From the NCBI GenBank assembly GCA_964593235.1, contig CAZQGS010000039.1, positions 44,394 to 108,393 on the forward strand: 64,000 bases of DNA, given 5' to 3'. How positions within the stretch are numbered: position 1 is the stretch's first letter; each line of letters begins with the position of its first letter. The translations under genes were made by a program, and so were the position numbers. Origin of the DNA: an uncultured Gemmatimonadota bacterium (GTDB lineage Bacteria; JAAXHH01). This document shows, piece by piece, positions 12,469-29,888 of the stretch. A model generated the notes under the pieces. It had not been told where the DNA came from. It searched no databases and saw only the letters and a program-made list of their open reading frames with translations.

Positions 12469-13296
12469 TTAACAACGAGCTCTATACCAGGGTTTAAAAA
12501 GCGCCCGCTGATCGTCGTCCCAACGAGCGAACGTTCTGTCTGTTACAAATTGTGGCTCGTCCATAGTAGCAATATTTTGGGACATCATCCAATAAGGTCC
12601 ATATCCAACGTGTATTGTCTTTCGGACCTGATCTGACAAGTTAGTTATTCCACCATGTCTAAGATTTTCTGTAAACAATATTGCATCTCCAGCCTTTACT
12701 TCAAGAGCTATCATGCCTGGTTCATCATCTGGATGGCTGCCGTATGGACATGGTAACATTGTCTTGTGACTCCCGGGGACAACACAAAACGCTCCCTCAT
12801 TTCGAGATACATCATGAACAAAGTAGATCATACGTACCATCATACAATCAACTTTATTGGCTGTAAAATTATATTTGTACTTCTGATTCTCTTCTCGCAT
12901 TCCACCATGAGAAGGGCTTACATTACCACGAAATCTTATTCGGATTTCAGAATTATTTATTGTGACTCTTCCCTGGATAATTTTGTCGATATATTTCATT
13001 GTCCGAGTGTTGTTCACCAGTATATCAAAACGCGAGTCCGCATTCCAGAAATCTTCAATAATTAGACTACTTCCAGCTGTATTTGATCCATCTACGTGAT
13101 ATCCTAGTTCTGGATTTTGATGGTAGTCTGGGCCCCAAGGACTGATTTTTCTAGGCTCCTCACTCAAATTAATTATGGCGTGCTGTTCCAACTCATTTAC
13201 CGCTGATGATAAAAGCGAGACGTCATTTAAATCCAGTATGTCTCTGATAACGATGAAACCCTGTCGATCAAATTCGTAACTCTCGATTTCGTTCAT
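12469..13296 (-). CDS. PhyH-family Fe(II)/2-oxoglutarate-dependent dioxygenase (paralog 1)
   Basis: 275 aa ORF. N-terminal YEFDRQGFIVIRDIL, an HxD triad motif (GYHVDGS) and a distal His (PGSHKT). Good SD (aaggag) upstream. Confidence 0.7.
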   Translation of the reverse strand: MNEIESYEFDRQGFIVIRDILDLNDVSLLSSAVNELEQHAIINLSEEPRKISPWGPDYHQNPELGYHVDGSNTAGSSLIIEDFWNADSRFDILVNNTRTMKYIDKIIQGRVTINNSEIRIRFRGNVSPSHGGMREENQKYKYNFTANKVDCMMVRMIYFVHDVSRNEGAFCVVPGSHKTMLPCPYGSHPDDEPGMIALEVKAGDAILFTENLRHGGITNLSDQVRKTIHVGYGPYWMMSQNIATMDEPQFVTDRTFARWDDDQRALFKPWYRARC

Positions 13297-13668
13297 GGTA
13301 TCTCCTTAATTTCTCTACTTCCATGACAAGATCTTTCTAAAATTGCTGGTAATTGGTAAACCTTTTTAATATCTTCACAAGAGTCAGTGCTATAATATAT
13401 TATTAAACTTATGTCCCCTCAAAATTTTCTGCCAACTTTTTATAAAATACTATAAGACTAAAATGGTAACAATAAGATGTTCCATAATTTATTTAAACCT
13501 TCGTAAAATTGATGGCTAAACAGATAGTTGACGACTTAACCACAAAACCATATATATAGAGACTGACAGGATATTAATTATTGATCTAGCTCGATCTGGA
13601 TCTAACAAATCTTTAAATACTTCAGACCTTCAGTTAAGTAGATTTGTGGAAGACTTAGGTATAAGATC

Positions 13669-14823
13669 ATGAAAATAGGTATCCCAATTGAGACATGTGA
13701 AGGGGAGCGCCGAGTATCAATTACGCCAGCAGGTGTGACGGTATTGATAAAGGCAGGCTGCACAGTCCTAATTGAAGATAATGCTGGCTTAACGGCTGGA
13801 TTTAGTAATGCCTCTTATGAAGAAGCTGGGGGCAGAATTGTTTCAAATAGAGTTGACATTTTTAATGAAGCTAAAGTCATTACACAAGTTAGAGCTGGTG
13901 GAGCAAATCCTGATTCTGGACTAGCCGACATCAATCATTTGGATCAAGAACAACTACTAGTTGGTTTCCTAGAACCATTATCATCACCATCGGAAATTGA
14001 AATTCTCGCTCAACGACATGTCACTGCTTGCGCGATGGAATTTATACCTAGAACTTCCCGAGCTCAATCAATGGACGCTCTCTCATCTCAGGCCAATATC
14101 GCTGGGTACAAGGCTGGCTTAATGGCAGCCGAAAGTCTTCCAAAGATGTTCCCCATGATGATGACAGCCGCCGGAACGATTACTCCAGCTCATGTTTTTG
14201 TTGTAGGAGTCGGGGTTGCAGGGCTCCAAGCTATTGCCACATGTAAACGGCTAGGAGCAGTAATTCAAGCATATGATGTTCGTCCTGCTGTCAAGGATCA
14301 AGTCCAAAGTGTTGGAGCCCGTTTTGTAGAATTAGAACTCGATACTTCAGCATCGGAAGATGCTGGCGGCTACGCCCAAGCAATGGATGAAAACTTTTAT
14401 GCCAAACAGCGTGAAATGATGACTCGCGTTGTTGGATCAAATGATGTGGTGATCACAACTGCCGCTGTACCGGGGAAAAAAGCGCCGGTATTAGTAACGG
14501 AAGAAATGGTGAAAGGCATGAAAGCGGGGTCTGTTATAATCGACCTAGCTGCTGAACGTGGAGGCAATTGTGAACTAACAAACCCAGGAACCACTGTCAT
14601 CAAACATGGAGTGACTATAGTCGGAGAATTGAACCTTCCATCTAAAGTTCCCTTCCATGCTAGTCAGATGTATTCAAATAATATAGTAAACTTTCTTAAA
14701 TTGTTGATTAATGATGGCTCTTTGGATCCAGATGTTGATGATGATATCGTGCAGAGTTCGACCATAACCCGAAATGGAAAAGTGGTCAACGAACAAGTAA
14801 ATATCCTTCTTACTGGCACCTAA
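13669..14823 (+). CDS. pntAA: NAD(P) transhydrogenase subunit alpha part 1 (dI)
   Basis: MKIGIPIETCEGERRV... with an alanine-dehydrogenase-like NAD-binding fold (VVGVGVAGLQAI). Confidence 0.85.
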   Translation: MKIGIPIETCEGERRVSITPAGVTVLIKAGCTVLIEDNAGLTAGFSNASYEEAGGRIVSNRVDIFNEAKVITQVRAGGANPDSGLADINHLDQEQLLVGFLEPLSSPSEIEILAQRHVTACAMEFIPRTSRAQSMDALSSQANIAGYKAGLMAAESLPKMFPMMMTAAGTITPAHVFVVGVGVAGLQAIATCKRLGAVIQAYDVRPAVKDQVQSVGARFVELELDTSASEDAGGYAQAMDENFYAKQREMMTRVVGSNDVVITTAAVPGKKAPVLVTEEMVKGMKAGSVIIDLAAERGGNCELTNPGTTVIKHGVTIVGELNLPSKVPFHASQMYSNNIVNFLKLLINDGSLDPDVDDDIVQSSTITRNGKVVNEQVNILLTGT

Positions 14824-14863
14824 AAGCGCTGTCACGGCAACGACATAATCAAGGGGTGACATT

Positions 14864-15145
14864 ATGGGCGAAACAATTGCCGTCCTGACTATATTTATTC
14901 TAGCTATATTTGTTGGTTTTGAAGTAATTACCAAAGTACCACCGATATTGCACACACCCCTTATGTCCGGTTCGAATGCAATATCAGGTATTACAATTAT
15001 TGGTGCTATACTTTCAACGGGAACAGAGTACTCTACACTAACCACTATTTTAGGCTTCATTGCTGTTGTTTTTGCAACCCTCAATGTTGTCGGTGGTTAT
15101 TTGGTTACCAATCGGATGCTCGACATGTTTAAACGAAAGGATTGA
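14864..15145 (+). CDS. pntAB: NAD(P) transhydrogenase subunit alpha part 2 (small membrane dII fragment)
   Basis: 93 aa, three hydrophobic helices, located between pntAA and pntB. This is the three-gene arrangement seen in Rhodospirillum-type transhydrogenases. Confidence 0.75.
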   Translation: MGETIAVLTIFILAIFVGFEVITKVPPILHTPLMSGSNAISGITIIGAILSTGTEYSTLTTILGFIAVVFATLNVVGGYLVTNRMLDMFKRKD

Positions 15146-15149
15146 TCAA

Positions 15150-16541
15150 ATGTCAGCTGATATCATCCGGATAGCCTATTTGGTAGCCGCCTCATTTTTT
15201 ATCCTGGGGTTAAAAGGACTTTCCCACCCTAGAACTGCAGTCAGGGGTAATCGGCTCAGTGCTCTAGGAATGTTTATCGCGATTCTAGTTACCCTGATCG
15301 ATCAACAAATAGTCGGTTTCGAAGTCATTGCTGCAGGAATTATCCTGGGAGGCACCATTGGTGCCATATGGGCATTAAAAGTTCCTATGACTGCTATGCC
15401 CCAGTTTGTTGGACTTTGTAATGGATTTGGTGGGGGGGCTTCGGTATTAGTAGCTGGAGCAGCATACCTAGAAGCTTCTTCCAGTATCATGACACTGCAA
15501 TTTGGCATTTCAACTATGATCTCCAGTTTAATTGGAGGAATAACTTTCTGGGGAAGTTTAATTGCTTTTGGAAAACTACAAGGCCTCATTTCAGAAAAAG
15601 CTGTTCGTTTTGCTGGGGACCATTTTATAAAAGCCTTATTATTGGGCGGAACTGTAGTTACTGGTTTTCTTGGGATTTTAAACCCAGAAGATACTGAATA
15701 CTATTGGATCATGCTAGGCTTAGCGTCTATCCTAGGTATACTCCTAGTAACCCCAATTGGTGGCGCAGATATGCCTGTTGTGATCGCTCTATTGAATTCT
15801 TACTCTGGAATGGCAGCAGCAGCGACTGGCTTTGTTCTGTCCAACAATGTGTTGATCATTGCTGGGTCTCTTGTTGGGGCATCAGGGTTAATTCTCACAA
15901 GTATAATGTGCAAAGCCATGAATCGGTCGTTGACCAATGTGATTTTTGCTGGAGTTGGAGCCGAATCGGATTCGGAAACCTCTGGATCTGAAGATGACAT
16001 ATATGAAGGAAAAGTTAAATCTACAACTGCTGAAGAAATTGCCATGGTACTTGATAGTGCCCAACGCGTAGTTATTGTCCCAGGGTACGGGATGGCGGTG
16101 GCACAAGCCCAGCATGCTGTAAGAGACCTTGCCAACCAACTAGAGTCAGCTGACATTGAGGTCATTTTTGCGATTCATCCAGTCGCCGGACGTATGCCCG
16201 GACATATGAATGTCCTTTTGGCTGAAGCAGATGTACCCTATGATCAACTCAAAGAAATGGACGAAGCTAATGGCGGATTTGAACAGACTGACGTAACTAT
16301 TGTAATTGGGGCTAATGATGTAGTAAATCCACTAGCCCGAGATGCAGCCGACACCCCTTTAACAGGTATGCCAATTCTAAATGTTGATAAATCTCGAACA
16401 GTAGTGGTTATAAAACGTAGTTTAAGTCCCGGTTTTGCTGGGATTCCTAATCCGCTATTTGCTGCAGAAAACTGCCTAATGCTTTTTGCTGATGGTAAAG
16501 AGGCCGTTCAGGAATTATCAACAGCCATGAAAGAAATCTAG
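15150..16541 (+). CDS. pntB: NAD(P) transhydrogenase subunit beta
   Basis: The true start is most likely ATG 15150 (MSADIIRIAYLVAASFFILGLKGLSHP, the canonical PntB N-terminus), not the upstream ATG 15060 that overlaps pntAB. The C-terminal dIII NADP-binding domain is present. Confidence 0.85.
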   Translation: MSADIIRIAYLVAASFFILGLKGLSHPRTAVRGNRLSALGMFIAILVTLIDQQIVGFEVIAAGIILGGTIGAIWALKVPMTAMPQFVGLCNGFGGGASVLVAGAAYLEASSSIMTLQFGISTMISSLIGGITFWGSLIAFGKLQGLISEKAVRFAGDHFIKALLLGGTVVTGFLGILNPEDTEYYWIMLGLASILGILLVTPIGGADMPVVIALLNSYSGMAAAATGFVLSNNVLIIAGSLVGASGLILTSIMCKAMNRSLTNVIFAGVGAESDSETSGSEDDIYEGKVKSTTAEEIAMVLDSAQRVVIVPGYGMAVAQAQHAVRDLANQLESADIEVIFAIHPVAGRMPGHMNVLLAEADVPYDQLKEMDEANGGFEQTDVTIVIGANDVVNPLARDAADTPLTGMPILNVDKSRTVVVIKRSLSPGFAGIPNPLFAAENCLMLFADGKEAVQELSTAMKEI

Positions 16542-16593
16542 ATCTACAATACTAAAGATCTCTACAAACTGAAAAGTCAAGAAAGGAGTAAAA

Positions 16594-17775
16594 ATGGCCT
16601 CTATCGGGACGCCTTTGTCAGATACAGCTACAAGGATTTTGATGTGCGGTGCAGGCGAATTAGGTAAGGAAGTGGTCATTGAATTCCAACGTCTTGGTGT
16701 AGAAGTGGTGGCTGTAGACAGATATGCTAATGCACCTGCCATGCAGGTAGCACATCGTTCATATGTTGTAGATATGCGTGATGGAGCTGCGCTACGTAGA
16801 GTGATTGAAAAAGAAAAGCCTGATTTAATTGTCCCTGAAATAGAAGCAATAGCAACTGATGAGCTTTTAAAGTTAGAAGCTGAAGGTTTCTCTATAGTAC
16901 CTACTGCTAGAGCTGTCCACCTCACCATGAACCGTGAAGGGATTCGCCGTCTGGTTGCTGAAGAACTTGGTCTTCCTACGTCACCCTACAGATTTGCTGA
17001 AGTTTTTGACGAATATGAGCAAGCAGTTGAGCAAATTGGGATTCCCTGTGTTATAAAACCAGTAATGAGTTCATCAGGTAAAGGCCAAAGTACTATCCGT
17101 GATAGGTCAGATATAAATAGAGCCTGGCAGCGAGCTCATGACGAAACTAGGGGAGTTGCAAGTAAAGTAATTATTGAGGGATTGGTTGAATTCGATTATG
17201 AAATCACATTGCTGACTATTCGTCATGTTGATGGAACAAGTTTTTGTCTTCCGATCGGTCATCAACAAATAGCAGGAGACTATCGTTATTCATGGCAACC
17301 ACAACCTATGACTGAGAATGCTTGGGGAAATGCAAAAGACACGGCAAAAAAAGTTACCGATGCCTTGGGAGGTTATGGTGTTTTTGGAGTTGAATTATTT
17401 ATAAAAAACAACGATGTTTTATTTAGTGAAGTATCTCCGAGACCGCATGATACAGGTTTAGTAACCCTTATTTCACAGGATCTCTCTGAATTTGCACTTC
17501 ATGCAAGGGCGGTTTTAGGGCTTCCAATACCTAAAATACATCACCATGGTCCCTCTGCTTCGGCTGCACTGGTTGCTGGTGGTGATTCGCGACAGATTAA
17601 ATATAATAATTTAGAAGTAGCTCTTTCCCAACCAGATACCAACCTACTTCTTTTCGGGAAGCCGGATATTTCCGGCCATAGGCGACTAGGTGTAGCTATC
17701 GCACGAGGCTCAGATATTGATATAGCCCGTGCTAAGGCTGTCACAGCAATAGAATCTATACATATTGAACTTTAG
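16594..17775 (+). CDS. purT: formate-dependent phosphoribosylglycinamide formyltransferase (GAR transformylase 2)
   Basis: ATP-grasp protein of 393 aa. N-terminus [25 protein letters not shown] is the PurT signature. Confidence 0.9.
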
Positions 17776-17837
17776 CCGATCTTTTAAACCATAAAAAGAA
17801 GACCGTGACCTGATATCAGTATTGTTAAGGAGTAATA

Positions 17838-18695
17838 ATGCAAGCCAAAAAAGATTCCCCTATACAAATTGATAATCGTGAATGGGGCGTCCTTACTCAA
17901 GGTGACCGTATTAGAATGATTGAAGAGGAAGGATATTTAATAATCCCTGATTGGATAAACTCAGATCACCTGAAGGCCTTAAAACAAGAATGCGAAAAAC
18001 TAGAAACAGTTGGTAGAGACTATAGCGAAAAACAGAGGGGCTGCAATAACCCTCATCTTAAAAGCAGACAATTGGCTGATCTAATCGCTTATGCACCCAC
18101 AATTAATTTTCTGGAAAAACTTTTTGGAGATCAGCTAGTATTTCTTCATTATACCTATGACCGTTCGGACCCTGGTACTCCCGGAATAAGCCTTCACACG
18201 GATGGACAGCCCTACGGATCAAAAATATTTGGTTATGAAGGGAGCTGCCCAATTACTGTTAGAGTACTCTATTATCTTGATGACCTGACTCTTGATGTAT
18301 CACCTTTTCGGGTGATTCCAAGATCACACCTATGTATGCACTCGGATGCTAATCCATACAAAAGGTACGACCGGCATCCCGAAGAAGTTATTGTACCCTG
18401 TACCGCAGGTTCAGCACTATTTTTGAACCATAAAGTATTTCATGGTACATTACCTAATAAGGGTACTCGGTCAAGATCAATGTTGGCTGTTGCCTACCGC
18501 CCAAGCTGGTCAGGTCCTATTGTCAATGTCCCTTCTCGAAACTCCTCAGAACTTGACCAGATGCCTAAAAACGTCCTACCCTATATGGCTGATCCCAACA
18601 TACGATTATACGATTTTGATACCAATAATAAACCTCAAGGAATGATATCAGAAGCCCCTGGAATGAACCCGAGTAGGTGGCAAAGAAAAACTTAA
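17838..18695 (+). CDS. PhyH-family Fe(II)/2-oxoglutarate-dependent dioxygenase (paralog 2)
   Basis: 285 aa ORF with HxD (SLHTDGQ) and distal His. SD aaggag upstream. Confidence 0.65.
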   Translation: MQAKKDSPIQIDNREWGVLTQGDRIRMIEEEGYLIIPDWINSDHLKALKQECEKLETVGRDYSEKQRGCNNPHLKSRQLADLIAYAPTINFLEKLFGDQLVFLHYTYDRSDPGTPGISLHTDGQPYGSKIFGYEGSCPITVRVLYYLDDLTLDVSPFRVIPRSHLCMHSDANPYKRYDRHPEEVIVPCTAGSALFLNHKVFHGTLPNKGTRSRSMLAVAYRPSWSGPIVNVPSRNSSELDQMPKNVLPYMADPNIRLYDFDTNNKPQGMISEAPGMNPSRWQRKT

Positions 18696-18777
18696 ACCAA
18701 GAAAATTCTTACTACCGATTTCATAGTAGGTTAAATAACTAAAACCAAAATATTTTTTTAACTATGGGAGTACTCCA

Positions 18778-20176: not shown

Positions 20177-20200
20177 AAATATTACAGAGCAAGACAGAAA

Positions 20201-20449: not shown

Positions 20450-21298
20450 ATGGATACGGCTCTCGAAAAATTCAACTCAGATGGATACTTAATCCTTAAA
20501 AATTTCTATCCTAATAGAATAATAGAAGCCGCTCGAGGAGCCGCAAGTGAACTAGTTGATAGAGTTGCTATTCGACTTTTAGAATCTGGAAAAATTTCAA
20601 AAAGTTACTCAGATCAGCCTTTCGAAAGTAGATTAGCTCGGATATGTGATGTTGTCCCAAATGATGTTCCCCATATATTTCGGAAAGAACTCCATCTACT
20701 AGGTATGTACGATGTATTTTTTTTCTCACCGCTGTTAGATATAGCCGAATCCCTACTTGGCCAGGAACTCCGGCTTTACCCAAACTATTCGATTCGCCCT
20801 AAGTTGCCTGACCACGCTCCTACTCATGTCCTCTGGCATCAGGATGGTGGATATACCTATAAACTCCATTTAGATGGAGATTATAACACCACAATTGTTG
20901 ATAGTTTAAAGATGATTAATGTATGGTCTCCTCTCGTTCCAGCTCGAGAAGAAAATGGTTGTATGCAGTTTATTCCTGGAACCCACAAGATTGGTATGGC
21001 TCAACACGAAGACCGGGAGTTTTACCTTGAGATAGCTCAGGATGACCTGGTACCTTTTTTGGATAAAGCTGTGTCGATCGAACTTGACCCTGGAGACATA
21101 GTCCTGTTTCATAATATGCTCTACCATCAAGCACTACCCAATCATTCTGACCATGTCCGGTGGAGTATGGATTGGCGATACCAAGATGCTCGTCAATCAA
21201 CCCTTCGCCCCACGCAAGGACATTTAGCGCGTAGTCAAATAAACGAAAGTCAGGTAGTATCAAGTGCTGTTGACTGGGCGCAAAGAGTCTTTGGATAG
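20450..21298 (+). CDS. PhyH-family Fe(II)/2-oxoglutarate-dependent dioxygenase (paralog 3)
   Basis: 282 aa ORF. FNSDGYLILKNF, HxD (LWHQDGG) and distal His (IPGTHKIG). Confidence 0.65.
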   Translation: MDTALEKFNSDGYLILKNFYPNRIIEAARGAASELVDRVAIRLLESGKISKSYSDQPFESRLARICDVVPNDVPHIFRKELHLLGMYDVFFFSPLLDIAESLLGQELRLYPNYSIRPKLPDHAPTHVLWHQDGGYTYKLHLDGDYNTTIVDSLKMINVWSPLVPAREENGCMQFIPGTHKIGMAQHEDREFYLEIAQDDLVPFLDKAVSIELDPGDIVLFHNMLYHQALPNHSDHVRWSMDWRYQDARQSTLRPTQGHLARSQINESQVVSSAVDWAQRVFG

Positions 21299-22147: not shown

Positions 22148-24898
22148 ATGTGCCTTAAATCTACCCCCCTTAATTTTGGTATTATTAAAAATATCTTGGT
22201 ATACTTTCTCAACTATCCTATACAGTACCTAAATATAAGACTTTTATTCCTAATTTCTTTTCTGCTGCTTCCTAATTTATTATTTGCTCAGAAAGAAAAG
22301 GTCCCTAACCTGAAAGCTGCCATAAGAACCGGTGATATTGCTATTGATGGCAGGTTAGATGAAGCAGCCTGGCTTGTAGCAGTTCCCACTAGAAATTTTA
22401 TACAACGAGAACCGCTTGAAGGAGCAAAACCTGAAAAACTTACTGAAGTTAGAGTGCTTTACGATAATCGTGCTCTCTATGTGGCTGCACGGATGTATGA
22501 TGACAACCCTAAGGCGATTGCCAAACAACTAGTCCGTCGAGATGAGGGCGGCCAGTTCGATTATTTTACTATATCTATCGATCCTAATAATGATAAGCGA
22601 ACCGGATATCAATTCAGAGTTAGTGCTGCGGGTGTTCAACGAGACGCTTATCTTTATGATGATGTCAGAAGAGATAATGCCTGGAATGCTGTATGGGCTT
22701 CTAGTGCTCGAATCGACGAAAAAGGCTGGGTTGCCGAAATCCGTATTCCACTCTCACAGATACGTTATGATGTTTCTGAATCTCCACAATCTTGGGGTAT
22801 CAATTTCACTAGACGATGTTTGGCTAATAATGAGACTGTGGACTTCGCATTACAATCTCGAGTTCAGTATGGGCGAGTGAGTGTTTTGGGCCGATTGGAT
22901 GGACTCACTCTAAACACCAAAAATCGCCGCTTAGAATTCCGACCTTTTATTCTTGGAAACGCTAGAACCGCCCCATCTGAAGATGACAATCCCTTTTTCG
23001 ACGGATCAGAATTTAACAAACGTTTTGGAATTGACATACGATATGGCTTAGGATCTTCATATACTCTAGATATGGCATTTAAGCCAGACTTTGGCCAAGT
23101 TGAAGTAGATCCTGCTGTCATAAACCTTTCTGAATTTGAAACTTTCTATCAGGAACGAAGACCATTTTTCGTTGAAGATGCTAAAATCTTCGACTTCAAT
23201 CTTTCAGGCAGAGATGAATTGATATACAGTCGCCGTATTGGGCGCCAACCAACTGGCCGAGCCCCAGGTGGTTCAACCTATTCTGACATTCCCCAAGAGA
23301 CCACCATTATTGGAGCTGCAAAAATTACTGGCCGGTCATTAAGTGGTACTTCTATAGGTGTATTAGCGGCTATAACTGGCCATGAAAAGGGTAAATCTTA
23401 CTCCAAGGAAGAAAACCTTATAACCGATTTTACTGTTGAACCTCGAGCAGAACACGGTGTATTTCGAATTCGCCATGACTTTAGAGATGGAGCCACCCAA
23501 TTGGGTGCAGTAGGTACTCTCCTGCATAGGAACTTACCCAATGATGGCTCTTTTAACCATCTTACTTCGAATGCTTTCGCTGCCGGGTTAGACTTTGAAC
23601 ATAATTGGGGTGGTGTTAGAAAACGGGATTGGGCAGTCTACGGATACATTGCTGGAAGCCATGTACGTGGAAGCTCCGAATCAATACTTAGAATCCAACG
23701 GTCAAGCAACCATTATTTCCAACGGCCTGATGCTACTGGATTTGCTGTGGATTCCACAGCAACATCAATAAATGGCGCTAACTGGCGTCTCCAGTTAGCG
23801 CGACGAGACACACGTAACTGGTCCGGTTCGATTTGGCTAGCAGAAATATCGCCAGGTTTTGAAATAAATGATCTTGGATTCTCACGATCTACTGAACGGA
23901 TCGATGGCGGAGCTCGAATTGAATATCGTAATTTTATACCTGGACGATTATTCCGAAACTATAGAATAAATCTGTCTACTTTTTATAATTTTAGTCACGA
24001 GGCTCTGGATAACCCTTGGTCTGTTTCTTCATGGCAACAAAACTATAAACGGGGGGCATTCAGTGGCTATGCCGACTTCGAACTCAAAAATTTCTGGGAC
24101 ATTGAAATCAGATCCCGGTATAGCCCGACACGTTTTAGTGATACTATGACACGGGGGGGACCAGTTATGAAATCCCCCCGATCCTTTTCAATTTACTCAG
24201 GAATTGAAACAGACCGAAGAAAAGCTATTACACTAGGATATGGCTTTGAGGCGGAATGGATACAAAATAATGGTTATGAATGGAGTACCGGATTCGATAC
24301 CACGATACGTCCAACTACTAACTTCGAACTTGAAATATCACCACGTTTTACCTGGGAAAAAAACCCAGCTCAATATATTACACAAACTGACGAGCTTTTA
24401 TTTGAACCTACCTATGGAACACGTTACATTTTCTCTGACCTACAAAGTCGTTTTTTATCTCTAGAAACCCGATTAAATGTGGCTTTTTCACCCAATTTTA
24501 CATTCCAATTGTATGCCCAACCTTTGCTTGCATCAGGTGACTATCTTAATTATAAACAACTATTAAAGCCCAATAGTTTTACTTTTGATATATTAGATGA
24601 AGGAACCCGTTCCTTTGTGGATCCAAAAGATTCCCAGAGACATCTTGACTTTAATGGGGACGGAATGACTGATATTAATTTTTCCGACCGAGATTTTAAT
24701 ATACAATCACTCAGAATGAATTTAGTTCTTCGGTGGGAATATAAACCTGGGTCCCGTGTCTTTTTTGTATGGCAGCAAAACCGTGATGAACGAGATGCTA
24801 CCGGGTCAGTAAAGATAGGGGAAGACCTAAAAAAATTACTCACGGCTAATTCCAGTAATAGGTTTATTATTAAGTTTAACTACTGGTTCGGCTTGTAA
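22148..24898 (+). CDS. large secreted DUF5916 / carbohydrate-binding-module-9-like domain protein
   Basis: 916 aa ORF. A signal-peptide-like LLFLISFLLLPNLLFAQ lies about 30 aa in from the called ATG, so the real start may be a downstream TTG. The N-terminal DGRLDEAAW...VLYDNRALYVAARMYD block is typical of CBM9-like/DUF5916 proteins of FCB-group bacteria. The C-terminus is beta-rich. Confidence 0.55.
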   Translation: MCLKSTPLNFGIIKNILVYFLNYPIQYLNIRLLFLISFLLLPNLLFAQKEKVPNLKAAIRTGDIAIDGRLDEAAWLVAVPTRNFIQREPLEGAKPEKLTEVRVLYDNRALYVAARMYDDNPKAIAKQLVRRDEGGQFDYFTISIDPNNDKRTGYQFRVSAAGVQRDAYLYDDVRRDNAWNAVWASSARIDEKGWVAEIRIPLSQIRYDVSESPQSWGINFTRRCLANNETVDFALQSRVQYGRVSVLGRLDGLTLNTKNRRLEFRPFILGNARTAPSEDDNPFFDGSEFNKRFGIDIRYGLGSSYTLDMAFKPDFGQVEVDPAVINLSEFETFYQERRPFFVEDAKIFDFNLSGRDELIYSRRIGRQPTGRAPGGSTYSDIPQETTIIGAAKITGRSLSGTSIGVLAAITGHEKGKSYSKEENLITDFTVEPRAEHGVFRIRHDFRDGATQLGAVGTLLHRNLPNDGSFNHLTSNAFAAGLDFEHNWGGVRKRDWAVYGYIAGSHVRGSSESILRIQRSSNHYFQRPDATGFAVDSTATSINGANWRLQLARRDTRNWSGSIWLAEISPGFEINDLGFSRSTERIDGGARIEYRNFIPGRLFRNYRINLSTFYNFSHEALDNPWSVSSWQQNYKRGAFSGYADFELKNFWDIEIRSRYSPTRFSDTMTRGGPVMKSPRSFSIYSGIETDRRKAITLGYGFEAEWIQNNGYEWSTGFDTTIRPTTNFELEISPRFTWEKNPAQYITQTDELLFEPTYGTRYIFSDLQSRFLSLETRLNVAFSPNFTFQLYAQPLLASGDYLNYKQLLKPNSFTFDILDEGTRSFVDPKDSQRHLDFNGDGMTDINFSDRDFNIQSLRMNLVLRWEYKPGSRVFFVWQQNRDERDATGSVKIGEDLKKLLTANSSNRFIIKFNYWFGL

Positions 24899-24940
24899 CC
24901 TCAGTTTCTCTTTTATTGCAACTTGACAATTCTAGATCTT

Positions 24941-24978
24941 GAGGCCCATATTAACTGTTTATGTGGGCCTCTTTGGTT
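24941..24978 (+). terminator. rho-independent terminator downstream of the DUF5916 gene
   Basis: 8-bp GC-rich stem gaggccca/tgggcctc, a 15-nt loop, followed by tttggtt. Confidence 0.6.
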
Positions 24979-25077
24979 AGGTCTATTTTTAAAAATTTCT
25001 GATAATATAAACCCTACATTGGATAACTCCTGTCTGATTTACTATGGAGTGCGATTCAAAGAACTACCATTAAAGCC

Positions 25078-27243
25078 ATGAAAATCAGTCCTAAGATATT
25101 AATATTCCTTGGAATATTATCCATTAACTTCCTTTTCACCCAGGTGGCTCATAGCCAAGTAGTTCGAACTGACTACATGGAGTCGGAGCTCATTGTTGAA
25201 ACAGAAACAATTCTACCAGGACATCCATTCTGGGTCGGGTTGCGGATGAAAATGGATAAAGACTGGCATACCTATTGGCGTAATCCGGGGGACTCAGGAC
25301 TCCCGACGGAAATAAATTGGAAACTGCCAAACGGTTTTCAGGTTGGACAGATTCACTGGCCTTATCCCAAGACAATAATACTAGAAATGTTAGGTAGTTA
25401 TGCTTATGAAGGAGAAACCCTACTTCTTGTTGAAATTACTCCACCCGCTACCTTGAACTCAGGAATGTTTGTTGATCTGCAAGCTGAAGCTTCTTGGCTT
25501 GTTTGTGCGGATATATGTTTACCTGGTGAAGCAAAGTACAAGGTAACACTGCCGGTTTCATCTAAAGTCCCGCAGATTAATGAAAAGTGGGCATCTCTTT
25601 TTACCCAAACGAGAAAGAATCTACCGGTTCTAATACCCGAGTGGATAATTGAGGCCTCGATTACGGACTCTACCATCGTATTTCATGCCACCCCACCCCA
25701 ATGGTTTGACGGTAAAATAACCAATGTTACATTTTTCCCTTACCATGAAACACTGATAGACCATTCAGCACCTAATAAATTAGAAAGAACAAAAGACGGT
25801 TACCTATTAACTATGAGTCGATCGGAGTTCTTCTCTGGTGAGTTGGATCAAATTACTGGGGTGCTCGTCTCCGAAAGCGGATGGCGGGGAATGAGTTCCG
25901 AACGTGCCTTAGAAGTTAACGCTACCTATGTATCTCAACATCCAAAAGCAATTCTTTCTAGCGTTATACCTAATATGCAACACCAATTACCTAATATTGG
26001 GCAAGCTATAATTTTTGCTCTAATTGGGGGGTTAATTCTAAATCTAATGCCCTGTGTGTTACCTGTCATATCTATCAAAGTACTTGGCTTTATTGGACAA
26101 GCGGGTGATAATTTTATAAGAGCTCGGTGGCATGGGCTTTTCTTTACAGGCGGTATCCTAGTTTCATTCCTGGCTCTCGCTATAATTTTAATTGCCCTCC
26201 GGGCTGGTGGTGAGCAATTAGGATGGGGATTTCAGCTACAATCTCCTACATTTATTATAATATTATCTACCATTATATTTATGATTGGACTCAACCTTTT
26301 TGGCGTCTTTGAAATTGGTAATTCCCTAGGTCGCCTTGGGGCAAATCTGGATTCACGAAGTGGATTTGGAGGTTCCTTCCTTAGCGGAGTATTGGCAACT
26401 CTTGTCGCTACTCCCTGCACAGCACCGTTTATGGGGGTTGCTCTTGGATATGCGTTAACTCTATCAACGATAAAAGCGCTTATAATCTTTTGTTTTCTTG
26501 GCCTAGGCATGGCCCTACCCTACATAATTCTTTGTTTCATACCATCGATGCTTAATTTTATACCCAAACCGGGGCCATGGATGGAATCATTTAAACAATT
26601 GATGGGCTTTTTGATGATGGTAACTGTTGTATGGTTACTTTGGGTTCTGAATCTTCAAACGGATCCTAACTTTCTTGCCCTAATGATGATACTTTTAGTT
26701 ATGGTTGGGGTAGCTACTTGGATCTTGGGCCGCTGGGGCTCAACAACTTCGAGCAACAAATCTCGGTTAACTTCCAGAATTACCAGCTTTTTCATCATTA
26801 TCACTGGGGTAGTTATTATGCTCAACCAAGTACCTAATCTAGAGCATGTTAGTAACAAAAAATTAAACCCAAGTAATAATAAATTAGAATGGAAACCCTT
26901 TTCGCAGACTCTAGTTGAAGAACTTCGAGCTTCAGGGAAAACCGTTTTTGTCGACTTTACTGCTGCTTGGTGTCTTACCTGCCAAGTAAATAAAAGAGTT
27001 GCACTTAACGACAGTCAGGTTGTTGAACAGTTTAAAAACCAAGGAGTTATACCTGTTCAAGCTGACTGGACATCGAGAAATCCTGAAATAACAGAAGCGT
27101 TAGCTGAATTAGGTCGGAATAGTGTTCCTTTATACGTTCTTTATTCTGGTGGGCCCCAAAATAACCCTAAACTCTTACCAGAACTGATCACACCTGATTT
27201 AGTTTTAAACGCATTAAAAAATGTTAAAACAGCAAATCAATAG
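25078..27243 (+). CDS. protein-disulfide reductase, DsbD/ScsB family
   Basis: The ORF has three parts: signal peptide plus an N-terminal DsbD-alpha-like domain (WLVCADICLPG); a CcdA-type membrane core with CVLPVISIK and ATPCTAPFMG; and a C-terminal thioredoxin domain WCLTCQ. Confidence 0.8.
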   Translation: MKISPKILIFLGILSINFLFTQVAHSQVVRTDYMESELIVETETILPGHPFWVGLRMKMDKDWHTYWRNPGDSGLPTEINWKLPNGFQVGQIHWPYPKTIILEMLGSYAYEGETLLLVEITPPATLNSGMFVDLQAEASWLVCADICLPGEAKYKVTLPVSSKVPQINEKWASLFTQTRKNLPVLIPEWIIEASITDSTIVFHATPPQWFDGKITNVTFFPYHETLIDHSAPNKLERTKDGYLLTMSRSEFFSGELDQITGVLVSESGWRGMSSERALEVNATYVSQHPKAILSSVIPNMQHQLPNIGQAIIFALIGGLILNLMPCVLPVISIKVLGFIGQAGDNFIRARWHGLFFTGGILVSFLALAIILIALRAGGEQLGWGFQLQSPTFIIILSTIIFMIGLNLFGVFEIGNSLGRLGANLDSRSGFGGSFLSGVLATLVATPCTAPFMGVALGYALTLSTIKALIIFCFLGLGMALPYIILCFIPSMLNFIPKPGPWMESFKQLMGFLMMVTVVWLLWVLNLQTDPNFLALMMILLVMVGVATWILGRWGSTTSSNKSRLTSRITSFFIIITGVVIMLNQVPNLEHVSNKKLNPSNNKLEWKPFSQTLVEELRASGKTVFVDFTAAWCLTCQVNKRVALNDSQVVEQFKNQGVIPVQADWTSRNPEITEALAELGRNSVPLYVLYSGGPQNNPKLLPELITPDLVLNALKNVKTANQ

Positions 27244-27330
27244 GCACTAACGTTGTAATTGTAAGCATTCATAATTTTTATTCAGCATGAGGCTAGGTGT
27301 CAAAATCTTTCTAAAAAAGGAGAAAATTTC

Positions 27331-27954
27331 ATGAAACAATTACTCCACATCGCACTATTAGTTACACTAACCCTGTTTCTGAATGGCAGCCCATCTGATC
27401 TTATTGCTGAGGAGAAAGCTAAGGTTGGCCAATCAGCTCCAGATTTTACACTTACTGATGTTAGTGGAAACACTATAAGCCTATCAGATTTTCGAGGTAA
27501 CTATATTGTTCTAGAATGGATCAACTATGATTGCCCATTCGTTGCTAAACACTATAACAGCAAGAATATGCAAAGCCTCCAAGATCACTATCGAAATCAA
27601 GGCGTACTCTGGCTTGCCGTAAACTCGTCAGCTGAAGGAAAACAAGGTCAATTTTCAAATGACGAGATTCGCAAACGGCTAAAAACCCATCAGTCCACGG
27701 TTGATGCATATCTTCTCGATAAAAATGGTGAGGTGGGACGCCTGTACGGTGCTACTCATACTCCCCACATGTATATTGTTAATCCAAAAGGAACATTGAT
27801 TTACAGGGGAGCTATCGATAGTATTCGATCTACCAATATAGCGGACATTCCTAAAGCTGAAAACTACGTCACTATGGCTTTAGATGCTGTTTTTGATGGT
27901 AAAAATGTTCCTGTAGAACATACCCGGGCGTACGGTTGCGACGTCAAATATTAA
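27331..27954 (+). CDS. periplasmic thioredoxin-fold (TlpA/redoxin-like) protein with a monothiol CPFV motif
   Basis: 207 aa with an N-terminal signal peptide. The redoxin layout is APDFTL.D..G..ISLSDFRGNYIVLEW, but the active site reads YDCPFV, a single Cys. Strong SD aaggag upstream. Confidence 0.55.
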   Translation: MKQLLHIALLVTLTLFLNGSPSDLIAEEKAKVGQSAPDFTLTDVSGNTISLSDFRGNYIVLEWINYDCPFVAKHYNSKNMQSLQDHYRNQGVLWLAVNSSAEGKQGQFSNDEIRKRLKTHQSTVDAYLLDKNGEVGRLYGATHTPHMYIVNPKGTLIYRGAIDSIRSTNIADIPKAENYVTMALDAVFDGKNVPVEHTRAYGCDVKY

Positions 27955-28085
27955 ATATCTTTGTTATGTTGGTCTGGTCACAATAGAAGTTATAATTCTC
28001 AATAGATTTTATCAAAATCAGCTAAAGGGAAAATTTAAGAGGTGTCAAATCAAGAAAGTATAGATGTATTAAAAAGGAGGTGGGG

Positions 28086-28970
28086 ATGGCTATGTTTGGG
28101 GACCCTGAAAACTTTATTGTAATGAGTGATCGTGAGAAATACCTATATGACCTTCAGGGCTTTCTTGTCGTCCGCAACTTTCTGTCCCAGGAAGAAGTGG
28201 AAAACTTGAACAATGCTATCAATGCTAATCTAGATAAGGCTAGCCAACATGATCCAGGTGGTACTCTTGATGGAACACCACTGGCCGGACCCAATGCCCA
28301 ATATATTCATTACAACGGAATGTTAACCTGGGAGCAACCCTGGTGTCAACCTTTCCGTAACTTACTAGCCCACCCCAAACTAATCCCCTACCTCAATACC
28401 GTGATGGGAAGAGGTTGGAAGCTTGACCATAATATCGATATACTGACTTCGAAGGTGGGAGCTCAAGGCACACCCTTTCATGGAAACAGTACTGGAATGT
28501 TTAATGGGTCCACCTATTATATGTATGACGATGGTCGAATGCGAAGTGGGTTAAATGTCTGTCAATTTTACCTGACCGATGTAAATCCTGGTGATGGAGG
28601 ATTAGTAGTAATTCCTGGAAGCCATAAAGCCAATTTCCCGATGCCGAGTTATGTCCGGCATTATGAAGACCATCCAGAAATTTATCACCATATTATTATT
28701 AAAGCAGGTGATCTTGTTATCTTTAATGAGGCTACTACTCATGGTGCACTACCATGGAAAAGCGATGAAGAACGTCGATGTGTGCTCCACCGCTACATTC
28801 CTAAATATATGCACTACGATGGTGGAATTTATGAGACCCAGATGCCCGAGTGGACTAAAGAACTTACTGAAGCTCAGCGAGCTGTCTTAGAACCCCCTTA
28901 TATTTATAATCGTCCCCTGATTGGAGATGATGGACAAACAATCGTGAAACCTCGGAGAGAGGGGTTGTAA
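28086..28970 (+). CDS. PhyH-family Fe(II)/2-oxoglutarate-dependent dioxygenase (paralog 4; first of tandem pair)
   Basis: HxD (LDHNID), GDGGLVVIPGSHKANF and AGDLVIFNEATTHGALPW. ATG 28086 is 5 nt after aaggagg; the GTG at 28080 is too close to the SD. Confidence 0.7.
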   Translation: MAMFGDPENFIVMSDREKYLYDLQGFLVVRNFLSQEEVENLNNAINANLDKASQHDPGGTLDGTPLAGPNAQYIHYNGMLTWEQPWCQPFRNLLAHPKLIPYLNTVMGRGWKLDHNIDILTSKVGAQGTPFHGNSTGMFNGSTYYMYDDGRMRSGLNVCQFYLTDVNPGDGGLVVIPGSHKANFPMPSYVRHYEDHPEIYHHIIIKAGDLVIFNEATTHGALPWKSDEERRCVLHRYIPKYMHYDGGIYETQMPEWTKELTEAQRAVLEPPYIYNRPLIGDDGQTIVKPRREGL

Positions 28971-29018
28971 AATTACTATTCATCTGAATTATATTACATC
29001 TAAAATCAACCTACTAAC

Positions 29019-29888
29019 ATGAACCAAGCCGGCTTACCCTACATTACTATGCAGCCGCACGAAAAATACCTATTTGATTTGCAGGGATTTATTGTAGTCC
29101 GTAATGCCCTCACTCCTTTGCAGGTTAGAGACCTTAATAGGGCTTTGGAAGCTAATGCGGATAAACGCGAACAGGACACTGCGTCTGACACCAGTACAGC
29201 CTTGAGAGGTAATCGGTACCGCGGCCTTTATGAAGGAATGCTTTCTTGGGAAAAGCCTTGGTGTTTACCCTTTCGTGAAGTGCTAGCTAATCCTAAAGTT
29301 ATTCCTTATTTGAATACATTATTAGGCCGCGGATGGAAATTGGATCATGAACCCTTTATCTTTACATCCAGTGCTGGTACAGAAGGGCTTCGTCTTCATG
29401 GACATGGGTTATCCGAGTATAGTGGCTCTAGATTTTATACTTATCAAAATGGGTCTATGCGTTGCGGGTTGATCAACTGTCAGTACCAATTAAATGATGT
29501 CAATCCAGGAGATGGAGGACTATGTATTATCCCAGGTAGTCATAAAGCTAACTTTAAACTTCCGACTGACATTTCTGGCTATGAAGAAAATCAGGATATT
29601 GTATATCACGTCCCTATGAAGGCAGGGGATCTTGTTATATTTAATGAATCAACCACCCACGGTACCCTGCCTTGGCAAGGTAAACAAGAACGTCGTTCTC
29701 TTTTCTATCGCTATACCCCTAAATATATGCATTATGCTGGGGGCATGTATAAAACTAAAAATCCAGCGTGGGTCAAAGAACTCACGGACGTACAACAAGC
29801 TGTTTTGGCCCCTCCATATGTCTACAATAGGCCATTAATCGACGATGGTGGTGTTTCAATATCAATGCCCCGTCGGGAAGGTGAATGA
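29019..29888 (+). CDS. PhyH-family Fe(II)/2-oxoglutarate-dependent dioxygenase (paralog 5; tandem duplicate of the preceding gene)
   Basis: Collinear with paralog 4, with the same motif blocks: LDHEPFIFTS, GDGGLCIIPGSHKANF and AGDLVIFNESTTHGTLPW. Confidence 0.7.
   Translation: MNQAGLPYITMQPHEKYLFDLQGFIVVRNALTPLQVRDLNRALEANADKREQDTASDTSTALRGNRYRGLYEGMLSWEKPWCLPFREVLANPKVIPYLNTLLGRGWKLDHEPFIFTSSAGTEGLRLHGHGLSEYSGSRFYTYQNGSMRCGLINCQYQLNDVNPGDGGLCIIPGSHKANFKLPTDISGYEENQDIVYHVPMKAGDLVIFNESTTHGTLPWQGKQERRSLFYRYTPKYMHYAGGMYKTKNPAWVKELTDVQQAVLAPPYVYNRPLIDDGGVSISMPRREGE

What the first reader, a model, noticed from the sequence alone, without database searches (positions are those of the whole stretch)
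12469..29888. Five PhyH-family Fe(II)/2OG dioxygenase paralogs within 17 kb
The five ORFs are at 12469-13296 (-), 17838-18695, 20450-21298, 28086-28970 and 29019-29888. All carry the His-x-Asp...His facial-triad pattern and the family-typical N-terminus (Y.FD..G(F/Y)(L/I)(V/I)(L/I)(R/K)N). The last two are a recent tandem duplication with collinear motif blocks. The others are diverged and each has its own good SD, so they are independently expressed. This density of one oxygenase family is unusual and suggests an oxidative metabolism of diverse small substrates, such as branched lipids, osmolytes or other dissolved organic matter.
Basis: seen in the sequence. Interest (0 to 1): 0.55.

Follow-up and report, generated by a model that had tools for sequence, protein, structure and literature searches.

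The report
Five PhyH oxygenase genes, three HygX-type
Five real iron/2-oxoglutarate oxygenase genes of the PhyH family sit within 17 kb of a marine bacterial chromosome; three have a rearranged iron-binding site so far described only in the antibiotic enzyme HygX, but crowding of this gene family is already documented in related marine and sponge-associated bacteria.

Summary
The five ORFs exist at the stated coordinates. All pass Pfam PhyH (PF05721), and the window holds no other copy. The description of them is only partly right.

- **Iron site:** only two (17838-18695, HTD; 20450-21298, HQD) have the canonical His-x-Asp...His triad. The other three (12469-13296 HGG, 28086-28970 HGN, 29019-29888 HGH) lack the acidic residue. 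They carry an invariant Glu four residues before the distal His instead. This is the H-x-G...E-x3-H arrangement published for HygX, which is also their best solved-structure match by sequence and, for the two modelled, by fold.
- **Tandem pair:** it is old, not recent. The two copies are 56% identical, and each has its own 76-83% ortholog in related genomes.
- **Setting:** the genes lie among housekeeping genes. Four are kept in synteny in Gemmatimonadota-labelled MAGs. The fifth sits at a synteny breakpoint that joins two ancestral blocks.
- **Density:** it is high but not unique. The same strain has two more copies 7-9 kb past the window. Four of 80 related 20-kb loci hold five or six. PhyH is published as the most abundant Pfam domain in Poribacteria.

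Substrates remain unknown, though gene context favours polar, sugar-like compounds. I rate these as new members of a known kind, of moderate interest.

The parts
12469..13296 (-). P1: PhyH-fold oxygenase of the HygX type (H130-G-G ... E210-x3-H214, R225)
   Evidence: PF05721 at 52.9 bits. Motif residues are invariant or at least 90% conserved in 29 homologs of 60-78% identity (A3). HygX is the best PDB sequence hit. AF2 model has pLDDT 89, and its top 16 Foldseek hits are all HygX chains (E 1e-17, TM 0.64-0.76). HygX Lys137 aligns with the invariant R155.
11090..12427 (-). HemL-like class-III aminotransferase, 41 nt downstream of P1 on the same strand (probable co-transcription)
   Evidence: PF00202. 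NCBIfam hemL models score 220-242 bits, below their cut-offs of 486-527. The P1-aminotransferase pair is kept in L087/L088 but not in more distant P1 homologs L089 and L090.
17838..18695 (+). P2: canonical PhyH oxygenase (H-T-D ... H, Arg), between purT and a ThuA-like gene
   Evidence: PF05721 at 57.2 bits. Triad columns read HTD/H/R. A 285-aa PhyH gene occupies the same PurT-PhyH-ThuA-Prx position in L087/L088 (its identity to P2 was not measured). Only weak PDB hits (SptF, E 1e-3).
20450..21298 (+). P3: canonical PhyH oxygenase (H-Q-D ... H, Arg), a stand-alone gene at a synteny breakpoint
   Evidence: PF05721 at 93.1 bits. Best PDB hits are PtlH, SnoK and PHYHD1 at E 1e-7 to 1e-6. It is absent from the corresponding positions in L087/L088 (Prx is followed by Band_7) and in L007/L008 (an ABC-2/CAAX gene precedes the methyltransferase).
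28086..28970 (+). P4: HygX-type PhyH oxygenase (H132-G-N134 ... E215-x3-H219, R230), first gene of a co-directional array
   Evidence: PF05721 at 73 bits. H132, G133, E215, H219 and R230 are invariant in 37 homologs while residue 134 varies (A2). HygX is the best PDB hit for the single sequence (E 2e-8) and for the profile (E 1e-15), with E-x3-H aligned to HygX LNEALMH. AF2 model has pLDDT 81.5, and its top Foldseek hits are HygX. Strong SD AAGGAGG.
29019..29888 (+). P5: HygX-type PhyH oxygenase (H-G-H ... E-x3-H, Arg), an old tandem paralog of P4
   Evidence: PF05721 at 61.1 bits. 56% identical to P4. Its own orthologs are 76-78% identical in L007/L008. No SD; 48 nt after P4.
29899..31533 (+). 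TPP-dependent enzyme (NCBIfam PRK06154 family). Its start is 10 nt after the P5 stop, and an AAGGAA overlaps that stop.
   Evidence: NCBIfam NF004807 at 681 bits against a cut-off of 607. It is about equally distant from BbmA, glyoxylate carboligase, 2-hydroxyacyl-CoA lyase/oxalyl-CoA decarboxylase and acetolactate synthase in the PDB (E 1e-52 to 1e-43). Junction sequence read directly.
31553..32992 (+). M81/MlrC-family metallopeptidase homolog, in the same array
   Evidence: PF07364 and PF07171. The order P4-P5-TPP-MlrC-EamA is kept in L007/L008 at 74-83% identity.
33041..33964 (+). EamA-family transporter, in the same array
   Evidence: PF00892. Syntenic in L007/L008.

Best explanation
The stretch holds five functional PhyH-fold Fe(II)/2-oxoglutarate oxygenase genes from four deeply diverged subfamilies. 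They are scattered among housekeeping genes of a low-GC marine bacterium whose nearest named relatives are Gemmatimonadota-labelled MAGs.

Two of them (P2, P3) bind iron through the canonical His-x-Asp...His triad. Three (P1, P4, P5) belong to a clade conserved across phyla. In this clade the Asp position is non-acidic (G, N or H here), and the carboxylate ligand is inferred to come from an invariant Glu four residues before the distal His. That arrangement has so far been described for the orthoester synthase HygX.

All five keep the Arg that binds the C5 carboxylate of 2OG. Each should therefore decarboxylate 2OG, form a ferryl species and oxidise its own substrate.

The clustering is not one pathway. 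It results from three things:
- an old tandem pair (P4-P5), apparently co-transcribed with a TPP enzyme, an M81 peptidase homolog and an EamA transporter;
- two further resident copies (P1, P2) in a second ancestral block;
- one copy (P3) at the junction where the two blocks were brought together.

All this sits in a genome and an ecological guild where PhyH genes are generally expanded.

Substrates are inferred, not shown. Polar, sugar-like, sugar-acid-like or amino compounds from dissolved organic matter are the most likely.
For: Family membership:
- Pfam PF05721 for all five.

Iron site:
- Over 162 PhyH ORFs from the window and 86 loci, the 61 with D/E at the HxD position have no Glu at -4 of the distal His, except 4. 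Of the 101 without D/E there, 99 have E-x3-H.
- H, G, E, H and R are conserved in both families (A2; A3).
- E-x3-H aligns with LNEALMH of HygX.
- The HygX motif is described in PMC13374393.
- Foldseek puts HygX at the top for both models.

Age and inheritance:
- P4 and P5 are 56% identical, with separate orthologs in L007/L008.
- P1 and P2 are syntenic in L087/L088.
- GC and GC3 of the five genes are mostly within the window norm (|z| at most 1.1, apart from GC3 of P4 at z = 1.97).
- P3 lies between the two synteny blocks.

Array:
- Intergenic gaps are 48 nt (P4-P5) and 10 nt (P5-TPP), then 19 and 48 nt by the ORF coordinates, and the order is conserved in relatives.

Expansion:
- Kamke 2014.
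- 5.5 extra PhyH per 100 kb in 1.47 Mb of flanks, with up to 6 copies per 20 kb.
- Two more copies 7-9 kb past the window in the same strain.

Context:
- SDR, GFO/MocA, enolase-superfamily and TPP genes recur next to clade members. The enolase-superfamily gene is directly upstream in about 20 loci.

Organism:
- LysRS is 77-80% identical to that of Gemmatimonadota MAGs.
Against: - No activity, metal content or substrate was or could be tested.
- I could not inspect model coordinates, so Glu ligation in P1, P4 and P5 rests on alignment, covariation and analogy with HygX.
- HMMER places the HxG His of HygX about 9 residues out of register with H132 of P4, because a loop differs in length. That equivalence rests on the family-wide alignment with canonical members.
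- Gene context differs between lineages and is often plain housekeeping, so the substrate inference is weak.
- The whole-genome PhyH count for this lineage is unknown.
- Operon structure is inferred from spacing only. The promoter and terminator scans were at chance level.
Confidence: 0.75

Rival explanations
1. One reading: five canonical HxD...H dioxygenases, including a recently duplicated pair, each independently expressed. Together they form an unusual local arsenal for branched lipids, osmolytes and other dissolved organic matter.
For: All five are PF05721. Three have strong SD sites. The density is far above that of most bacteria: Kamke 2014 reports under 0.049% of genes outside Poribacteria.
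Against: Three lack the Asp. The pair is 56% identical and has separate orthologs in relatives. P5 has no SD and abuts its neighbours. Comparable densities occur elsewhere. No acyl-CoA ligase or lipid genes lie next to any copy. The EctD model scores 23-25 bits against a cut-off of 336.
Confidence: 0.1
2. P1, P4 and P5 are tailoring enzymes of a secondary-metabolite pathway. Like HygX, they would catalyse oxidative cyclisation, such as orthoester formation, on a glycoside.
For: HygX is the closest solved relative by sequence (P1, P4, P5 families) and by fold (P1, P4) and shares the relocated carboxylate. P1 keeps a basic residue (R155) at the position of HygX Lys137.
Against: Identity to HygX is only about 20%. 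No glycosyltransferase, PKS, NRPS or aminoglycoside genes lie nearby; the neighbours are PntAB, PurT, peroxiredoxins, DsbD and Lpx genes. Both families are 55-78% conserved across several phyla, which fits central or catabolic functions better than specialised products. The Lys137 equivalent in P4 is Val.
Confidence: 0.07
3. P1 (H-G-G), and perhaps P4 and P5, are Fe/2OG halogenases. The vacated Asp site would bind halide as in SyrB2 or WelO5, which would be relevant in a halide-rich marine setting.
For: An HxG/A motif at the triad position is the hallmark of Fe/2OG halogenases (established knowledge). The review notes that HygX is 'reminiscent' of them. Weak NCBIfam hits to 'chlorinating enzyme' for P3, P4 and P5, not P1.
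Against: The invariant Glu at -4 of the distal His restores a carboxylate ligand, as in HygX, which is not a halogenase. TIGR01762 scores 20-47 bits against a cut-off of 226. Position 134 is often bulky (H, Y, W, F, M), which does not fit a halide pocket.
Confidence: 0.05
4. P4/P5 plus the adjacent TPP enzyme form an alpha-oxidation-like module. It would resemble PHYH followed by 2-hydroxyacyl-CoA lyase: 2-hydroxylation, then TPP-dependent C-C cleavage.
For: The TPP gene starts 10 nt after P5. 2-Hydroxyacyl-CoA lyases are among its better PDB hits (E 2.5e-48). TPP enzymes occur within 10 kb of clade members in 14 of 80 loci.
Against: The TPP enzyme is no closer to HACL than to BbmA or glyoxylate carboligase (1e-52), and it belongs to the uncharacterised PRK06154 family. 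No acyl-CoA synthetase lies in the array. Human PHYH is a weak hit (E 1.6e-4). The other TPP neighbours are only about 27% identical to this one, and many of those loci share synteny, so they are not independent.
Confidence: 0.08

Closest known systems
HygX (Streptomyces hygroscopicus hygromycin B orthoester synthase; PDB 4XC9, 4XCA, 4XCB, 4ZPI)
   Same: PhyH-type double-stranded beta-helix fold. H-x-(non-acidic) in place of HxD. The carboxylate is supplied by E-x3-H. N-terminal Y.FD..GF motif. Best solved-structure match for P1 and P4 by sequence and by fold, and for the P4/P5 family profile by sequence (motif from PMC13374393).
   Different: Only about 20% identical. HygX sits in an aminoglycoside gene cluster, whereas these genes lie among housekeeping genes and are conserved across phyla. 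The loop after the first His is 9 residues shorter in P4. HygX Lys137 corresponds to Arg in P1 but to Val in P4. The vacated position is N or H in P4 and P5 rather than G.
PhyH-domain expansion in Poribacteria (Kamke et al. 2014, PMC3909097)
   Same: Many diverse PF05721 genes per genome, mostly of unknown function, in marine and sponge-associated bacteria. Poribacterial homologs of P4 are 55-64% identical.
   Different: That report concerns another phylum and does not discuss the iron-site variant in the passages read here. The organism here is a free-living, low-GC pelagic relative of Gemmatimonadota-labelled MAGs.
PtlH, SnoK and PHYHD1/FJS (canonical PhyH-family hydroxylase, carbocyclase and 2'-O-methyl-nucleoside demethylase)
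   Same: P3 shares the canonical HxD...H...R site and matches them at E 1e-7 to 1e-6. PHYHD1-like activity is reported to be widespread in PF05721, including a poribacterial enzyme (PMC12709175).
   Different: The PHYHD1 and SnoK matches cover only the C-terminal third of P3, and the PtlH match about 170 residues. All NCBIfam equivalog scores are far below their cut-offs. No orthology is shown.
TlxI/TlxJ heterodimeric PhyH-family dioxygenase (PDB 7VBQ)
   Same: Two paralogous PhyH-fold proteins encoded side by side. TlxI is a weak hit for P1, and TlxI/TlxJ chains appear in the fold searches for P1 and P4.
   Different: Heterodimerisation of P4 and P5 was not tested. Both keep a full set of catalytic residues.

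Membership tests
Pfam PF05721 PhyH / Fe(II)-2OG oxygenase | Match to the family HMM above the gathering score | tested here: met
   All five score 52.9-93.1 bits against a cut-off of 22.
Pfam PF05721 PhyH / Fe(II)-2OG oxygenase | Canonical His-x-Asp/Glu ... His facial triad | tested here: not met
   Met by P2 (HTD) and P3 (HQD) only. P1 is HGG, P4 is HGN and P5 is HGH.
Pfam PF05721 PhyH / Fe(II)-2OG oxygenase | Arg about 10-11 residues after the distal His, binding the C5 carboxylate of 2OG | tested here: met
   Invariant column in all five and in families A2 (R230) and A3 (R225).
Pfam PF05721 PhyH / Fe(II)-2OG oxygenase | Double-stranded beta-helix fold | tested here: met
   AF2 models of P4 (pLDDT 81.5) and P1 (89.1) match PhyH-family structures at E 1e-12 to 1e-17. 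P2, P3 and P5 were not modelled.
Pfam PF05721 PhyH / Fe(II)-2OG oxygenase | 2OG-dependent oxidative turnover | not testable with these tools
   Needs an enzyme assay.
HygX-type relocated-carboxylate subgroup | Non-acidic residue at the Asp position of HxD | tested here: met
   P1 has G132, P4 has N134 and P5 has H. The family column is S, A, N, G, H, W, Y, T, M or F.
HygX-type relocated-carboxylate subgroup | Glu four residues before the distal His (E-x3-H) | tested here: met
   ENLRH, EATTH and ESTTH. The Glu is invariant in A2 and A3 and aligns with HygX NEALMH. It is mutually exclusive with HxD/E in 158 of 162 ORFs.
HygX-type relocated-carboxylate subgroup | Glu actually ligates the metal | not testable with these tools
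Needs a structure or spectroscopy.
HygX-type relocated-carboxylate subgroup | Lys137-equivalent basic residue filling the vacated site | tested here: inconclusive
   In the phmmer alignments, HygX K137 pairs with R155 of P1 (invariant in A3) but with V158 of P4.
HygX orthologs (orthoester synthase in an orthosomycin or aminoglycoside cluster) | Location in a glycoside antibiotic gene cluster and close sequence similarity | tested here: not met
   About 20% identity. The neighbours are housekeeping genes.
Fe/2OG halogenases (SyrB2/CytC3 type) | HxA/G with no protein carboxylate ligand, and a match to the chlorinating-enzyme model | tested here: not met
   E-x3-H is present. TIGR01762 scores 20-47 bits against a cut-off of 226.
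Ectoine hydroxylase EctD | Match to the TIGR02408 equivalog | tested here: not met
   23-25 bits against a cut-off of 336.5.
Phytanoyl-CoA 2-hydroxylase / alpha-oxidation module | Close similarity to PHYH, with an adjacent 2-hydroxyacyl-CoA lyase | tested here: inconclusive
   PHYH (2A1X) matches P4 at E 1.6e-4. The adjacent TPP enzyme is equidistant from HACL, glyoxylate carboligase and ALS.

The most novel reading that the evidence does not exclude
The relocated-carboxylate (H-G-x ... E-x3-H) PhyH clade is known biochemically only from HygX. It may in fact be a large, cross-phylum family of primary or catabolic enzymes in marine and sponge-associated bacteria. On that reading it would carry out non-hydroxylating chemistry, such as oxidative cyclisation or C-O bond making or breaking, on sugars or sugar acids from dissolved organic matter. 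The hypervariable residue at the vacated Asp position would set reactivity or specificity. Conserved tandem pairs such as P4/P5 would act as heterodimers or in consecutive steps.
Probability: 0.2. Interest if true: 0.6.

Novelty: new member of a known kind. Interest (0 to 1): 0.35.

Why it matters
PhyH-family genes are among the most expanded and least understood enzyme families in sponge symbionts and some marine heterotrophs. Three of these five genes, and most of their relatives sampled here, use the HygX-type iron site rather than the textbook triad. This changes how they should be annotated and which chemistry to expect, since HygX cyclises rather than hydroxylates.

It also gives concrete, well-conserved targets (P1 and the P4-P5-TPP-M81-EamA array) for finding what these bacteria oxidise in dissolved organic matter. 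The gene crowding itself is not new, and it does not point to a single pathway.

Tried and rejected
- **Promoter and terminator scans** over 11-30.9 kb were at chance level (53 found against 51 expected; 17 against 16) and say nothing about transcription units.
- **Rfam** found nothing in the window.
- **Conserved operon across phyla for the P4 family:** neighbourhoods differ by lineage. The recurring Caldilineaceae block is housekeeping (MurJ, a pyridine nucleotide-disulphide oxidoreductase, an amino-acid kinase and an aminotransferase), so it gives no functional link.
- **P1-aminotransferase pairing as a general rule:** it holds only in close relatives.
- **Naming the organism from cluster members:** no names were returned. 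LysRS and the locus titles point only to MAGs labelled Gemmatimonadota. The described marine order Palauibacterales has 52.8-71.7% GC, which does not match the 41% here, so I made no order-level assignment.
- **McCulloch et al. 2015 (HygX structures):** not held in the library. The motif is cited from a 2026 review instead.
- **Whole-genome PhyH count for this lineage:** not obtainable.
- **Horizontal acquisition:** considered and rejected for P1, P2, P4 and P5, because their GC and GC3 are mostly within the window norm (P4 GC3 z = 1.97) and synteny is conserved.

Full report
**Observation**

Each matches Pfam PF05721 (PhyH) above the gathering score, at 52.9 to 93.1 bits against 22. I built an HMM from these proteins and their homologs and iterated it over every ORF of at least 120 aa in the window. 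It recovers exactly these five and nothing else in the 64 kb. I call them P1 (12469-13296, minus strand), P2 (17838-18695), P3 (20450-21298), P4 (28086-28970) and P5 (29019-29888). Apart from P4 and P5 (56%), pairwise identities are 20-29% or undetectable, so at least four old subfamilies are present.

**The iron site**

The claim that all five carry His-x-Asp...His does not survive alignment. P2 reads H-T-D and P3 reads H-Q-D. P1 reads H-G-G, P4 reads H-G-N and P5 reads H-G-H. The distal His and the Arg about 11 residues after it are invariant in all five.

- In P1, P4 and P5 there is a Glu four residues before the distal His (ENLRH, EATTH, ESTTH). P2 and P3 have His or Asn at that position.
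- The best solved-structure match for P1 and P4 is HygX (4XC9, 4XCA, 4XCB, 4ZPI). This holds for single sequences (E 2e-8 and 8.5e-7) and for family profiles (E 1e-15 and 4.5e-11). The E-x3-H segment aligns with HygX LNEALMH.
- Among 37 homologs of P4 (54-82% identity), H132, G133, E215, H219 and R230 are invariant. Residue 134 is N, H, D, S, E, Y, P, T or A.
- Among 29 homologs of P1 (60-78% identity), H130, E210, H214 and R225 are invariant, and G131 and G132 are at least 90% conserved.
- I aligned 162 PhyH ORFs from the window and 86 loci to one HMM. Of the 61 with D/E at the HxD position, all but 4 lack Glu at -4. Of the 101 without D/E there, 99 have E-x3-H. This mutual exclusion is the strongest evidence that the carboxylate has moved rather than been lost.
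- AlphaFold models of P4 (pLDDT 81.5) and P1 (89.1) have HygX chains as their top Foldseek hits (E 1e-14, TM 0.52-0.65; and E 1e-17, TM 0.64-0.76).
- Two caveats apply. HMMER puts the first His of HygX about 9 residues out of register with H132 because a loop differs in length. I also could not read the model coordinates. Glu ligation is therefore inferred.

**The tandem pair**

P4 and P5 are 56% identical. That is no closer than P4 is to homologs in Poribacteria or Caldilineaceae, at 54-64%. Two related genomes, L007 and L008 (the latter labelled Gemmatimonadetes), carry both genes in the same order. Their P4 orthologs are 82-83% identical, and their P5 orthologs are 76-78%. The duplication is old.

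**Expression signals**

P1, P2 and P4 have AAGGAG 6-9 nt upstream of the start. P3 has only GAGG, 14 nt upstream. P5 has nothing at either possible start. P5 follows P4 by 48 nt. The next gene, a TPP enzyme, starts 10 nt after the P5 stop, with an AAGGAA overlapping that stop. The MlrC/M81 and EamA genes follow after 19 and 48 nt. Consensus promoter and terminator scans were at chance level.

**Surroundings and history**

The window is core chromosome. It carries hemE, a PPO-like gene, pntAB, purT, peroxiredoxins, dsbD, lpxA/C-fabZ/D, bamA, clpC, lysS and prfB. GC and GC3 of the five genes are mostly within the window norm (|z| at most 1.1, apart from GC3 of P4 at z = 1.97).

- L087 and L088 come from 3.7-Mb genomes whose P1 ortholog is 77% identical. 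They keep hemE...aminotransferase-P1...pntAB-purT-PhyH (a 285-aa gene at the P2 position)-ThuA-Prx, and then continue with a Band_7 gene.
- L007 and L008 keep methyltransferase-DUF5916-DsbD-Prx-P4-P5-TPP-MlrC-EamA...LpxA. That block is preceded by an ABC-2/CAAX gene.
- P3 lies in the 1.3-kb interval between these two blocks and is absent from both sets of relatives.

The five-in-17-kb pattern is therefore two ancestral blocks with two resident copies each, brought together, plus one copy at the junction.

LysRS is 77-80% identical to that of MAGs labelled Gemmatimonadota. The samples carrying identical contigs are marine: Tara, GEOTRACES and Station ALOHA data sets.

**Is the density unusual?**

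For bacteria in general, yes. For this guild, less so.

- Kamke et al. 2014 found PF05721 to be the most abundant Pfam domain in Poribacteria. It made up more than 1.9% of genes, against under 0.049% elsewhere at that time, with 305 sequences in 193 clusters (PMC3909097).
- The genome scan found more than 600 P4-like stretches. These were mostly in Poribacteria, Latescibacterota, Caldilineaceae and Gemmatimonadota MAGs, many of which appear from their isolate names to come from sponges.
- In the 1.47 Mb flanking the 80 best loci there are 80 further PhyH genes, or 5.5 per 100 kb. Four loci hold five or six copies in about 20 kb. L090, from a 7.4-Mb genome, holds six.
- L093 is the same strain as the window (99.96-100% identity) and extends 9.3 kb past its right end. 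It carries two more canonical PhyH genes beside an SBP_bac_5 gene. That makes seven copies in about 76 kb.
- Using the 2 copies in 58.8 kb outside the flagged stretch as background, five or more in a given 17.4 kb has P = 4e-4. About 0.08 such stretches are expected per 3.8 Mb.

The cluster is a local excess within a PhyH-rich genome. A whole-genome count could not be obtained.

**Function**

No NCBIfam equivalog model is reached. EctD scores 23-25 bits against 336. The chlorinating-enzyme model scores 20-47 against 226. PtlH and PhnY* are far below their cut-offs.

- The A2 profile finds 1,544 50%-identity clusters at E up to 1e-10 in 1.84 billion representatives. Most of the best 150 have the relocated motif.
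- Across the 80 loci the recurrent neighbours are enolase-superfamily proteins (27 loci; directly upstream of the PhyH gene in about 20), SDRs (17 loci), GFO/MocA oxidoreductases (16 loci) and TPP enzymes (14 loci). The window itself has members of all four families. This favours polar, sugar-like or sugar-acid-like substrates, in keeping with HygX acting on a glycoside. Many of these loci share synteny and are not independent, however, and some conserved contexts are plain housekeeping.
- The TPP enzyme after P5 belongs to the uncharacterised PRK06154 family (681 bits against 607). It is equally distant from glyoxylate carboligase, 2-hydroxyacyl-CoA lyase and acetolactate synthase. A PHYH-plus-HACL style alpha-oxidation module remains only a possibility.

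**Mechanism: shown and inferred**

- Shown: family membership, conservation of the His/Glu/His/Arg set, the fold of P1 and P4, synteny and the age of the paralogs.
- Inferred: each enzyme binds Fe(II) and 2OG, decarboxylates 2OG to form a ferryl intermediate and oxidises its own substrate. In P1, P4 and P5 the Glu at -4 replaces the missing Asp as ligand. P4-P5-TPP-MlrC-EamA is one transcription unit. The residue at the vacated position is conserved within orthologous groups (HGN in all P4 homologs of at least 67% identity) and differs between them. It may therefore tune specificity.

**Comparison and verdict**

These are new members of the PhyH family. Three belong to the HygX-type subgroup but are not HygX orthologs: identity is about 20%, there is no antibiotic gene cluster, and Lys137 is not conserved in P4. 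The gene crowding matches a published phenomenon. The useful correction is that the majority iron site here is the relocated-carboxylate one. That matters for annotation and for predicting chemistry. Interest is moderate.

Noticed in passing
whole window versus L007, L008 and L087: The window has 41% GC. The syntenic stretches of its closest relatives (60-84% amino-acid identity, same gene order) have 60-63% GC. This is a drop of about 20 points in the pelagic lineage.
   Followed up: partly
L093:425-2094 (equivalent to about 71.2-72.9 kb, past the window's right end): The same strain carries two more adjacent canonical PhyH genes (HQD and HHD) next to an SBP_bac_5 solute-binding protein gene.
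   Followed up: yes
window:20177-21496: P3 sits exactly at a synteny breakpoint. The block shared with L087/L088 ends at the peroxiredoxin gene, and the block shared with L007/L008 begins at the methyltransferase gene.
   Followed up: yes
window:8071-12427: A HemL-like class-III aminotransferase scores below all hemL cut-offs. It lies directly downstream of P1 and near hemE, a PPO-like amine oxidase and a tetrapyrrole methylase. The URO-D protein has an unmatched N-terminal extension of about 165 aa.
   Followed up: no
window:43023-46638: A McsB-like ATP:guanido phosphotransferase gene lies next to clpC in an organism with BamA, OmpH and Lpx genes. To my knowledge this pairing is better known from Gram-positive bacteria.
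   Followed up: no
window:37406-38803: Fused LpxC-FabZ protein (PF03331 and PF07977).
   Followed up: no
window:52046-63331: A second M81/MlrC paralog, 30% identical to the one after P5, lies among GFO/MocA, SDR, enolase-superfamily, ceramidase-like, OYE-like and GH113 genes. This looks like a catabolic neighbourhood without any PhyH gene.
   Followed up: no
L061-L084, around position 8500-10000: In about 20 Poribacteria and Latescibacterota loci, an enolase-superfamily (MR_MLE_C) gene ends just before the HygX-type PhyH gene on the same strand, often with GFO/MocA and TPP genes nearby. This is the most consistent functional association found for the clade.
   Followed up: partly
L090:4802-13546: A 7.4-Mb genome has six PhyH genes within 9 kb, interspersed with AcnX, an alcohol dehydrogenase, transposases and an integrase.
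   Followed up: no
window:61497-61622 versus L093:11710-11796: The only stretch that does not align between two otherwise 99.96-100% identical contigs falls inside the OYE-like gene (60698-62152). Genes are called differently there in L093.
   Followed up: no
window:22148-24898 and 34768-36528: Large conserved proteins of unknown function, CBM9+DUF5916 (916 aa) and DUF8034 (586 aa), are kept at 65-84% identity in L007/L008.
   Followed up: no
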